Shown one piece after another: positions 963 to 8,658 of a stretch of DNA of 9,663 nucleotides (position 1 is the first letter of the stretch; each line of letters opens with the position of its first letter). Origin of the DNA: Octopus sinensis. Taxonomy: Eukaryota. The notes beneath the pieces are model-generated. The model did no database searches. It was not told where the DNA came from and worked only from the letters and a program-made list of their open reading frames with translations. The stretch covers positions 1-9,663 of the forward strand of contig NW_021827854.1 in the NCBI RefSeq assembly GCF_006345805.1. The letters are read 5' to 3'. Made by a program: the position numbers and the translations under genes.

Positions 963-1096
963 AAATTCCGCCGAGATTGACTTCGCCTTTCATCTATTAG
1001 GGGTCGGTAAATTAAGTACCAGTGAAACACTGGGGATCAACGTAATCTCCCTCACCTACAATTTCAGACCTTGAGCCTATAGCAGAAAGGGTTATT
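963..1096 (+). mobile_element. 5'-truncated tRNA-derived SINE, family A (central domain plus tail type 1)
   Basis: aaattccgccgagattgacttcgcctttcatctattaggggtcggtaaattaagtaccag aligns with 1312-1390 and with the reverse complement of 3721-3863. The tail aatttcagaccttgagcctatagcagaaagggttatt matches the tail of the 3721-3935 copy. Confidence 0.85.
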
Positions 1097-3720: not shown

Positions 3721-3935
3721 ATAATCCTGTCTATTATAGGCACAGGCCTGGAATTTAGGGGAGGGGATAAGTCGATTATTTCGACCCCAGAACTCAACTG
3801 GTACTTACTTTATCGACCCCGAAAGGATAAAAGGCAAAGGCGACCCCAGTGGCATTTGAACTCAGAACGTGATGACAGACTAAATGACGCCAAGCATTTC
3901 GCCCGACGTGCTAACGATTCCGCCAGCTCACCGCC
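3721..3935 (-). mobile_element. Full-length tRNA-derived SINE, family A (tail type 1), with a 16-bp target-site duplication
   Basis: Minus strand: ggcggtgagctggcggaatcgttagc (A-box-like), gagttcaaatgcc (B-box-like, 3851-3863), ctttgccttttatcctttcggggtcgataaagtaagtaccag, then the tail. Flanks aatatggtgaGataat (3710-3725) and aatatggtgaTataat (3937-3952) match at 15/16. Confidence 0.92.
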
Positions 3936-4429: not shown

Positions 4430-4610
4430 ATATATTTATCCTTCGAAACGTTTAGTAATGAAATCTTAGCGACTGAAGAAGGGGATTTTTCGTTGGCTTA
4501 TTGTCCTGTATCTCTCCTTTTTTTTGCTTGTCTTGTTCCTTGGTTGTGTCTATGTGTTTCGTCTCTCTATGTGTTCGACGTCTTTTTGGTGTCCTGTACA
4601 CAGATATGCG
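4430..4610 (+). mobile_element. Probable Penelope-like pseudo-LTR fragment embedded between TA-rich microsatellites
   Basis: Starts atccttcGAAACGTTtagtaatgaa (3' half of a hammerhead plus a polyA-signal-like motif), contains CTGAAGA at 4473-4479, then a T-rich tail. The layout resembles the 7291-7500 and 8383-8552 units. Family assignment is inference. Confidence 0.4.
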
Positions 4611-4676
4611 TGTATATGTAATGTAGAGGTAGGTACGTACATATATGTTTATATATATGCATATTTCTATTTTATT

Positions 4677-4680
<4 letters not shown>

Positions 4681-6135: not shown

Positions 6136-6556
6136 GGCACAGGAGTGGCTGTGTGGTAAGCAGCTTGCTTACCAACCACATGGTTCCGGCTTCAGATCCA
6201 CTGCGTCGCACCTTGGGCAAGTGTCTTCTACTATAGGCTCGAGTCGACCAAATCCTTGTGAGTGGATTTGGTTGACAGAAACTGAAAGAAGCCCGTCGTA
6301 TATATATATGTGTGTGTGTATGAGTGTGTGTGTGTGTGTATGTTTGTGTGTCTGTGTTTGTACCCCGCCCCTAACAACGCTTGACAAGCGATGCTGGTGT
6401 GTTTACGTCCCCGTCACTTAGCGGTTCGGGAAGAGAGACAGATAGAATAAGCACTAGGCTTACAAAGAATAAGTCCTGCGGTCGATGTGCTCGACTAAAG
6501 GCGGTGCTTCAGCTTGGCCACAGTCAAATGACTGAAACAAATAAAAGAATAAAAGA
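6136..6556 (+). mobile_element. Full-length composite tRNA-derived SINE, family B (CORE-like motif, internal TA/TG microsatellite)
   Basis: A-box-like TGGCTGTGTGG at 6146-6156 and degenerate B box at ~6189-6199. accttgggcaagtg (6210-6223) resembles the start of the CORE-SINE domain (ccttgggcaagt). Internal microsatellite at ~6299-6357. Tail cagtcaaatgactgaaacaaataaaagaataaaaga. Two homologues lie in this window. Confidence 0.92.
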
Positions 6557-6567
6557 GTATGTATATA

Positions 6568-7290: not shown

Positions 7291-7500
7291 GTGAGAATTC
7301 ACATAAAAAACAACAGACAGGTGGTGTAGACAACAAACAGATGTATTAGTGTTAACGCTCACGAAGTGAAAAAGTCTTTAATGTTTCGAGCCTACGCTCT
7401 TCCACAGAAAGGAACACAGAAAGAACAAAGAGAGAAAGTAAAGAGATTAATATATATAATAATCCCAAAAGACGGTAGTAAATACACGGCGAAAAGAAAA
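7291..7500 (-). mobile_element. Probable Penelope-like pseudo-LTR fragment with a degenerate minimal hammerhead
   Basis: Minus strand 7411-7376: cttt-CTGTGGA-a-gagc-gtag-gctc-GAAAC-ATT-aaag. Helix II gagc/gctc and helix I cttt/aaag both pair perfectly. A T-rich tail follows and ends at (TA)n. Confidence 0.6.
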
Positions 7501-7932: not shown

Positions 7933-8032
7933 CTGAAAAAATGATTTCATAAGGATTATACAGAATACATATTACAAGCATATGTATATATGAGAGGTAT
8001 TGGTATCCAGAAGCCCCAAGGTGGCAGGTAAC

Positions 8033-8064
8033 GCTATGTAAGTGCTATGTAAGTGCTATGAAAG
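8033..8064. repeat. 11-bp tandem repeat (gctatgtaagt) x ~3
   Basis: gctatgtaagt gctatgtaagt gctatgaaag. Confidence 0.85.
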
Positions 8065-8208
8065 GACCGTAGTTAAACTCTCGGTTCGATAATGATAAGA
8101 GGGAGGAGTCTAATGCGGGTCTTTTATGAGCATGTATATGTTAAATAAAATGAGACAACAAAGCCAAGGCTGTGTGGAATTTTCAAGACATTTATGAAGA
8201 GAAAGTTA

Positions 8209-8256
8209 GCCTTACAGCTGTTTCTGAGAAATTAGGGATATCCCTTCATCAGAGAC
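8209..8256 (-). ncRNA. Minimal type I hammerhead ribozyme motif (left arm)
   Basis: Minus strand gtct-CTGATGA-a-gggatat-cccta-atttctc-a-GAAAC-agct-GTA-aggc. The core is intact, helix I gtct/aggc pairs with one G-U, and helix II is weakened by one G-U and one U-U. Confidence 0.65.
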
Positions 8257-8434
8257 GATATGAGAGAGTTAAATAGAGGGGAAATAGTAGAATTCAGTAT
8301 AAGGAGTTATTTTGGAAAAGGAAGGAAATAAGGAGTATAGAGGGAAATAGGAGAATGAATGTACAAATAAAAATTTATAAACTAACTCGTTGTATTGAAC
8401 TCTAATATTTCCCTCTGTTTAACTATCTCACATC

Positions 8435-8482
8435 GTTTCTGATGAAGGGATATCCCTAATATCCCGGAAACAGCTGTAAGAT
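8435..8482 (+). ncRNA. Minimal type I hammerhead ribozyme motif (right arm); predicted cleavage after A8478
   Basis: gttt-CTGATGA(8439-8445)-a-gggatat-cccta-atatccc-g-GAAAC(8467-8471)-agct-GTA(8476-8478)-agat. Helix II is a perfect 7 bp, helix III is the palindrome ACAGCTGT, and helix I has two G-U wobbles. Confidence 0.75.
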
Positions 8483-8549
8483 TAACTTTCTCTTCATAAA
8501 TGTCCTGAAAATTCCACACCGCCTTGGCTTTATTGTTTCATTTTATTTA

Positions 8550-8559
8550 ACACACACAC

Positions 8560-8597
<38 letters not shown>

Positions 8598-8606
8598 ACA
8601 CACACT

Positions 8607-8658
<52 letters not shown>
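8550..8658. repeat. (AC)n microsatellite
   Basis: Direct reading of the sequence. Confidence 0.97.

What the first reader, a model, noticed from the sequence alone, without database searches (positions are those of the whole stretch)
8139..8552. Twin hammerhead ribozymes in a fold-back: each ribozyme is preceded by its own antisense copy
Seen: two ~170-bp arms (~89% identical) in divergent orientation. Both keep CTGATGA, GAAAC and the GTA cleavage triplet, and none of the 19 differences hits these core positions. Established: Penelope-like elements carry minimal type I hammerheads in their pseudo-LTRs and often form inverted pLTR arrangements. Inference: a read-through transcript from either strand makes the antisense arm first and the ribozyme second, so a long hairpin should trap the ribozyme. 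Only transcripts starting in the spacer would release a free ribozyme. This could be a non-autonomous ribozyme-bearing fold-back family or a self-silencing arrangement tolerated in introns.
Basis: partly seen in the sequence, partly recalled or inferred. Interest (0 to 1): 0.8.

Follow-up and report, generated by a model that had tools for sequence, protein, structure and literature searches.

The report
Penelope retrotransposon fold-back insertion scar
The two back-to-back hammerhead motifs are real, but they are the decayed tail ends of one jumping gene of the Penelope type, likely pasted in twice in opposite directions during a single insertion, a shape that is common in this octopus genome and already described in other animals.

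Summary
The inverted repeat and both hammerhead cores are real. The arms are not a dedicated twin-ribozyme unit. They are two 5'-truncated 3' ends of one Hydra-clade Penelope-like element; a full-length parent (L243: RWK, DKT, RT, C-terminal GIY-YIG, 3'UTR, hammerhead 89% identical) lies elsewhere in the genome. Of 88 sampled loci, 31 have a divergent inverted partner, each with its own breakpoints; 27 of the 31 carry the tail on one end only, and 17 of 88 hold two whole hammerheads. Five differences between the window's arms fall in helices I/II, neither arm folds as a hammerhead, and helices do not covary among copies. Hairpin trapping follows from geometry, but nothing shows transcription or selection here. 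Opposite-strand hammerhead pairs and inverted-copy-plus-tail insertions are in print (Cervera 2014, Craig 2021), and this scan noted such scars in two other genomes. Small new points: a 137-nt tail (published: 30-40) and copy statistics that favour priming from both target strands.

The parts
7992..8139 (-). Tail of the long arm: element sequence 3' of the pLTR body that, in the full-length parent, leads on to the ORF start. 148 nt here, 137 nt in most copies; the excess is an 11-bp tandem duplication at 8033-8064.
8140..8381 (-). Long arm: 5'-truncated 3'UTR/pLTR of the Hydra-clade element, including the supposed spacer 8313-8378
   Evidence: (89% over 226 nt to the 3' end of L243)
8209..8256 (-). 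Left minimal type I hammerhead motif (CTGATGA at 8252, predicted cut between 8213 and 8212); helix II carries a U-U mismatch and a G-U, helix I a U-G
8374..8381 (.). Head-to-head junction of the two arms, 3-8 nt overlap, no unrelated spacer
8379..8551 (+). Short arm: second 5'-truncated copy of the same 3' end, without tail
   Evidence: 89% over 158 nt to L243
8435..8482 (+). Right minimal type I hammerhead motif (CTGATGA at 8439, predicted cut between 8478 and 8479); helix II intact (7 bp), helix I has two G-U pairs of four; palindromic helix III ACAGCTGT at 8470-8477
8550..8658 (+). (CA)n microsatellite abutting the tail-less end, as at many other copies

Best explanation
Window 7992-8551 is two head-to-head, 5'-truncated 3' ends of one Hydra-clade Penelope-like retrotransposon, likely produced in a single insertion in which both strands of the cut target primed reverse transcription, and it has likely been decaying without function since. 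Shown: both arms match the 3' end of a full-length RT/GIY-YIG element; one arm ends at the pLTR body end, the other 137(+11) nt further on, at the tail end; the same geometry recurs with different breakpoints at about a third of sampled loci. Inferred: the RT-endonuclease cut both strands in a (TA)n/(CA)n tract; one 3'-OH primed at the tail-end start site and the other at the body-end start site; both cDNAs stopped early and were joined head to head by short overlap or end joining. The hammerhead is duplicated only because it lies about 75-120 nt from the body end. In the parent RNA it would act as a weak, dimer- or protein-assisted type I hammerhead (from the literature; not tested for this family). 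Any read-through RNA would form a long hairpin, as a by-product.
For: Parent L243: short pLTR + tail + ATG + RWK, DKT, QFDI, YIGS, CxxC + 3'UTR + hammerhead, 89% to both arms. L082 is the long version of the window: inverted 3' copy, truncated RT, EN, UTR, hammerhead, tail. Of 88 loci picked by a 3'-end motif, 31 have a divergent partner and 1 a convergent one. Tail on one end 27 of 31, both 1 (partial), none 3. The tail arm is the longer arm in 11 and the shorter in 10 of 21 scorable pairs, so a simple snap-back of one cDNA does not fit. Nine of 88 loci have only an inverted piece of tail next to a body, the non-overlapping twin-priming product. Arms of a pair share subfamily: 35 of 217 polymorphic cells differ (16%) against 53% between pairs, 0 of 5000 permutations. 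Decay: 47 of 89 copies keep the 13-nt core; no covariation. The purified anole PLE protein cuts and extends both strands and starts RT at two sites bounding the tail (PMC11167929).
Against: Core columns are better kept than flank columns across copies (4.3% against 7.3% departures, Fisher p = 3e-5). This points to selection on the core in the source elements, or to alignment bias, and does not strictly exclude selection on some copies. Pfam support for the domains is below curated cut-offs (RVT_1 E = 0.023, GIY-YIG E = 0.004). No target-site duplication or empty site was identified. Junctions show overlaps of only 0-10 nt in 12 of 24 pairs and gaps of 2-78 nt in the other 12. The window's arms differ at 5 of 14 subfamily columns, the most of any pair (P about 0.06). 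The priming model rests on genomic patterns only.
Confidence: 0.88

Rival explanations
1. Same parent and single event, but the inversion arose by self-priming (fold-back) on an antisense or looped template, as proposed for rotifer Penelope elements, not by priming from both target strands.
For: PMC3846280 proposes self-priming on an antisense template to explain head-to-head repeats with junction palindromes. The window junction overlaps the palindrome TTTATAAA, and L124/L125 junctions fall in the self-complementary helix II.
Against: The tail arm is longer in 11 and shorter in 10 pairs, half the junctions have gaps, and nine loci have an inverted tail piece with no duplicated region. It changes the mechanism, not the verdict. 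Its share lies inside the confidence given to the main identification.
Confidence: 0.25
2. A non-autonomous twin-hammerhead fold-back family that moves as a unit.
For: Two loci align across the junction query at 77-80% (L144, L145) and have similar size.
Against: L144 and L145 have other breakpoints and carry the tail on the shorter arm. All other hits stop at or near the junction. Spans run from 126 to 4698 bp.
Confidence: 0.03
3. A host-retained self-silencing hairpin or ribozyme switch, or a dsRNA source for editing or small RNAs.
For: The hairpin is very stable on both strands. Penelope copies give small RNAs in rotifers (PMC3846280). Both cores are intact.
Against: Arm divergence is ordinary (10.9% against 10.6%). 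Both cores are intact in 6 of 17 twin loci anyway. Helices are degraded. No gene was seen in the contig.
Confidence: 0.05
4. Two independent insertions, or two different template RNAs, that ended up adjacent.
For: The arms differ at three linked subfamily columns (-34, -14, -8), where each matches a different subfamily.
Against: Arms abut with no host DNA between them. 5 of 14 has P about 0.06, so about one of 21 pairs is expected by chance. Downstream columns agree. The one-tail geometry is the family's norm.
Confidence: 0.08
5. Terminal inverted repeats of a DNA transposon (MITE).
For: Inverted arms around a short middle.
Against: Arms are unequal, most copies are solo and 5'-truncated with a fixed 3' end, and long copies run into RT and GIY-YIG sequence.
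Confidence: 0.01

Closest known systems
Canonical EN+ Penelope-like insertion unit (Craig et al. 2021, PMC8557442, Fig. 2 legend; Arkhipova et al. 2013, PMC3846280)
   Same: Inverted 5'-truncated copy adjacent at the 5' end, tail on one end only, microsatellite targets, hammerhead in the pLTR.
   Different: Both copies here are short. The tail is 137 nt rather than 30-40 bp. No TSD was found.
Hydra clade of PLEs, including Hydra-1_Obim (PMC8557442 section 11 and supplement)
   Same: RWK, DKT, CxCx5C linker, no CCHH, CxxC and CxH around the EN E and N, C-terminal GIY-YIG, hammerhead, (TA)n next to the ends. By eye the motif DIIRRMRWKAFF is shared with Hydra-1_Obim.
   Different: About 4.1 kb with a 1.3-kb 3'UTR, against under 3 kb (Hydra-1_Obim 2507 bp). 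The hammerhead listed for Hydra-1_Obim is another sequence. This family has a clear pLTR and tail. So it is a different family; no tree was built.
Minimal hammerheads of metazoan PLEs (Cervera and de la Pena 2014, PMC4209133)
   Same: Type I, helix II 7 bp, helix I 4 bp, extra base after A9, G10.1-C11.1, palindromic helix III; that paper also reports pairs 100-700 bp apart on opposite strands.
   Different: An extra base also sits between C11.1 and G12 (A in 64, T in 34 of 108 copies). Helix III has a 4-nt loop giving an 8-bp palindrome.
PAc Poseidon element of Anolis (Frangieh et al. 2024, PMC11167929)
   Same: Two RT start sites bounding the tail, an AC-rich start region, AT-rich targets; hammerhead not needed for insertion, matching the lack of 5' ends at the cut site here.
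   Different: Other clade. Here the ORF starts about 50 nt after the tail end rather than inside the hammerhead, and the start sites are 137 nt apart.
Non-LTR retrozymes (bioRxiv 10.64898/2026.07.22.740005)
   Same: Type I hammerheads derived from PLE pLTRs.
   Different: Retrozymes are head-to-tail tandem arrays; these two motifs are on opposite strands and cannot form the cis dimer.

Membership tests
Penelope-like elements (EN+) | RT followed by a C-terminal GIY-YIG endonuclease in the parent | tested here: met
   L243 and L082 carry QFDI/YRDD-type RT motifs, then YIGS and EN motifs, upstream of a 3' end 89-90% identical to the arms. Pfam hits are below cut-off: RVT_1 E = 0.023 on L082, GIY-YIG E = 0.004 on L065 and L075; 5 of 8 pieces hit neither family.
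Penelope-like elements (EN+) | pLTR formed by a partial tandem; 5' truncation with a fixed 3' end | tested here: met
   L243 has a short upstream pLTR + tail before the ATG; 5' ends are spread widely, 3' ends fixed.
Penelope-like elements (EN+) | Inverted 5'-truncated copy, and tail at one end | tested here: met
   31 of 88 loci inverted; tail on one end in 27 of 31. Tail is 137 nt, not 30-40.
Penelope-like elements (EN+) | Target-site duplication | tested here: inconclusive
   Flanks are (TA)n-like and (CA)n; none could be read.
Hydra clade | RWK and DKT motifs in the RT N-terminal region | tested here: met
   RRMRWKAFF and SDKTGN in L217/L243.
Hydra clade | CxCx5C linker; CCHH absent; CxxC and CxH flanking the EN E and N | tested here: met
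   CNCCPGTIC in L031 (arm 92% to the window) and like motifs in L076, L107, L188; CKLCLKE and C[NH]H in L082; one Cys only before YIG (by eye). The linker pattern did not match in L243 or L082, which are mutated.
Hydra clade | Generally shorter than 3 kb | tested here: not met
   L243 spans about 4.07 kb. The paper gives this as a tendency, not a rule.
Hydra clade | Insertion into (TA)n | tested here: inconclusive
   Tail ends: (TA)n at 14 of 27. Body ends: (CA)n at 28 of 76, (TA)n at 8, (TG)n at 1.
Hydra clade | Placement in the RT phylogeny | not tested
   Reference sequences were only seen in a paper supplement.
Minimal type I hammerhead | CUGANGA, GAAA, UH core in type I order | tested here: met
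   Both arms.
Minimal type I hammerhead | Helices I, II and a short palindromic helix III | tested here: met
   87% of cells paired against 15-47% for slid controls in 72 copies. A near-source copy (L063) folds with helix I and II at P 0.87 and 0.98; the window arms do not (0.0/0.37 and 0.0/0.0).
Minimal type I hammerhead | Covariation in helices across copies | tested here: not met
   5 cells changed on both sides against 12.3 in shuffles; 476 of 500 shuffles reach the covariation score. Other families in the fetched loci keep the core with wholly different paired helices, and loop II varies in length.
Minimal type I hammerhead | Match to an Rfam hammerhead model | tested here: not met
   No hit.
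Minimal type I hammerhead | Self-cleavage | not testable with these tools
   No pile-up of 5' ends at the cut site among 123 copies.
Non-autonomous fold-back family or MITE | The unit recurs with the same ends and junction | tested here: not met
Non-LTR retrozyme | Head-to-tail tandem array of hammerhead units | tested here: not met
   Window arms are inverted; 1 of 88 loci scored tandem by its 3' ends, and that is a local duplication.

The most novel reading that the evidence does not exclude
This family is a genome-scale fossil record of how Penelope elements integrate: a dimeric RT-endonuclease primes both target strands at two fixed RNA sites 137 nt apart, four times the published tail length. 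That one rule gives solo copies, tail-only inversions and twin-hammerhead fold-backs, with (CA)n polarised to the body end and (TA)n to the tail end. As a side effect it has seeded hundreds of long hairpins in an animal known for heavy RNA editing.
Probability: 0.45. Interest if true: 0.45.

Novelty: new member of a known kind. Interest (0 to 1): 0.2.

Why it matters
As a locus it matters little: it is one decayed copy among many. It is useful as a caution, since twin opposite-strand hammerheads in animal genomes are an expected by-product of Penelope insertion. The family adds an octopus Hydra-clade element with a clear pLTR, a 137-nt tail and enough copies to test integration models by counting.

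Tried and rejected
Rfam scans: no hammerhead, only microsatellite and hairpin noise. Pfam on the 83-aa EN piece: nothing. Homologue search with L076 EN/linker: none of 3078 candidates; with the L082 RT piece: 1 of 721, an octopus protein with an uninformative name. Idea that 5' truncations cluster at the hammerhead cut site: rejected, 3-6 ends per 10 nt from -70 to +20 among 123 copies; the 5' end of L243 lies 7 nt before the site, a single case. Within-family covariation: none. Run search: no RNA holder listed. Laying two RNA runs of a related label (about 6% of each read): 118 and 105 reads, only 3 and 0 at 99% or more, 94-96% running on unlike, no pile-up of ends; two contig sets gave family copies and no piece spanning the stretch. 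None of this bears on expression of this locus or confirms the junction independently. Earlier-finding look-ups by sequence and by genome were blank. Among the 31 inverted loci, L166 looks like a larger palindrome with its flanks, and L168 and L210 (4.7 and 3.9 kb) may be chance neighbours; they were kept in the counts. In one search, 4 of 28 pairs could not be scored and 3 had arms within 8 nt.

Full report
Observation. The inverted repeat is real. A gapped alignment of 8380-8558 with the reverse complement of 8133-8312 shows 22 differences in 180 columns, 20 inside the element. Both arms read CTGATGA, a 7-bp helix II, GAAAC, AGCT, GTA, in type I order. That no difference hits the core is unremarkable (P = 0.16), and five differences fall in helices I and II. 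Rfam does not detect the motif.

Anatomy. The arm is the 3' end of a dispersed repeat: 2770 first-look candidates, 40 scored, best others 90-93%; exact 27-mer and 23-mer motifs occur 136 and 268 times. These are lower bounds, not copy numbers. The supposed spacer matches the sequence upstream of the hammerhead in other copies, so it belongs to the left arm. The left arm also continues 148 nt past the point where the right arm ends, in sequence shared with other copies. The unit is therefore tail 7992-8139, long arm 8140-8381 (minus), short arm 8379-8551 (plus), then (CA)n.

Parent. Longer copies run upstream into an endonuclease-like frame, whose relatives are abundant (9721 candidates, 150 scored). 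L082 has an inverted 3' copy, a 5'-truncated RT, the endonuclease, a 1.3-kb 3'UTR, the hammerhead arm (90% to the window) and the tail. L243 is full length: short pLTR and tail, ATG, RWK, DKT, QFDI, YIGS, CxxC, and a 3' end 89% identical to both window arms. These motifs, with the CxCx5C linker and no CCHH, are the features given for the Hydra clade (PMC8557442 section 11). Pfam hits are weak and below cut-off. The host is an octopus by inference from the label of P0001. The paper's supplement lists Hydra-1_Obim, 2507 bp, with another hammerhead; by eye ours is a different family.

How common is the fold-back. I took 98 of the 100 listed matches (of 268) to a 3'-end motif, which collapse to 88 loci; 28 had 1.5-kb flanks and 60 about 4.5 kb upstream. 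Thirty-one have a divergent inverted 3' end upstream and one a convergent one. Two-ended loci are sampled twice as often, so the true share is nearer 21% (my arithmetic). Seventeen of 88 hold two whole hammerheads, six with both cores intact. The tail is on one end in 27 of 31, on both in 1 (partial), on none in 3; spans are 126-4698 bp. Tail length is 137 nt in 16 of 28 measured. A junction query finds only half-matches apart from L144 and L145, which have other breakpoints.

Mechanism. Arms of a pair share subfamily letters (16% mismatch against 53% between pairs, 20 pairs), so they come from one source at one time. The tail arm is longer in 11 and shorter in 10 pairs, and nine loci have an inverted piece of tail beside a body with nothing duplicated. 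I infer priming from both target strands at two fixed start sites, with head-to-head joining of the truncated cDNAs. This fits the anole element, whose protein cuts and extends both strands, starts at two sites bounding the tail, is predicted to dimerise, and does not need its hammerhead for insertion (PMC11167929). Self-priming on an antisense template (PMC3846280) remains a rival. 5' ends do not cluster at the hammerhead cut site.

Is the ribozyme alive here. In 72 copies the helices pair in 87% of cells against 15-47% for slid controls, but changes break pairs rather than compensate. Only 47 of 89 copies keep the 13-nt core. Against a purely neutral reading, core columns depart less than flank columns (4.3% against 7.3%, p = 3e-5; helices 6.3%, p = 0.07), which I read as selection on source elements. 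A near-source copy folds with helices I and II; neither window arm does. The palindrome ACAGCUGU could form an 8-bp dimer helix (-11.1 kcal/mol), but not between a sense and an antisense motif in cis. Each arm departs from the family's commonest letters at about 5% of sites (6 of 133, 7 of 135); on the scale of 0.09 = 25 million years quoted in PMC13282606 that is very roughly 13 million years (inference).

What is known. PMC4209133 reports minimal hammerheads in PLE repeats, low dimer-dependent activity, and pairs 100-700 bp apart on opposite strands. PMC8557442 and PMC3846280 describe the inverted truncated copy and a 30-40 bp one-sided tail. Searches for octopus + Penelope + hammerhead, octopus genome + Penelope, Penelope + twin priming and inverted/tail terms listed no paper on this family or on a tail of this length; the library lacks most subscription papers, and Repbase and Dfam could not be checked.

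What I read. PMC4209133: parts 1-2 of 4 (abstract, results, discussion), supplements not seen, and they may list mollusc motifs. PMC11167929: parts 1-2 of 4. PMC8557442: passages, section 11, supplement passages. PMC3846280 and PMC13282606: passages. bioRxiv 10.64898/2026.07.22.740005: part 1 of 5. Hammerhead numbering, the L1 twin-priming analogy and heavy RNA editing in cephalopods are recalled.

Verdict. A real feature, explained by a known insertion process: new family member, known arrangement, interest 0.2.

Noticed in passing
window 7378-7412, minus strand: A second, unrelated minimal-hammerhead-like motif (CTGTGGA, GAGC/GCTC helix, GAAAC). Relatives in L002, L006, L030, L068, L167, L191, L192 read CTGTTGA or CTGTGGA, so this family appears to carry U where the core normally has A6.
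   Followed up: partly
L023, L096, L162, L184; L109, L138, L196; L190: At least three further hammerhead-bearing repeat families occur in the fetched loci, each with its own paired helices I and II around the same core.
   Followed up: no
window 4440-4680: Repeat containing CTTCGAAACG followed by CTGAAGAAGGGG; may be the end of another Penelope-like family (recalled resemblance only; printed).
   Followed up: no
L080 120-2807, minus strand: A second Hydra-like element with long open frames (371 and 333 aa), RIRW and SDKT motifs, 44% identical to the L082 RT over 140 aa, lying beside a copy of the studied family.
   Followed up: partly
family ends, e.g. window 8550 and 7991: Microsatellite polarity: (CA)n follows the body end in the element's own orientation (28 of 76, (TG)n once), (TA)n follows the tail end (14 of 27). 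Target choice or RT-added repeats; unresolved.
   Followed up: partly
L122 2138 (+), L072, L075, L189: Copies with longer loop II or a lengthened, still paired helix II.
   Followed up: no
L166: Inverted arms whose outer flanks are also inverted copies of each other: a larger palindrome rather than a simple insertion.
   Followed up: no
window 963-1035, 1269-1409, 3759-3899; 2393-2595, 6364-6566; 2668-2738, 6141-6211: Several dispersed SINE-like repeats in two or three copies amid long microsatellites; no gene evident in the contig.
   Followed up: no
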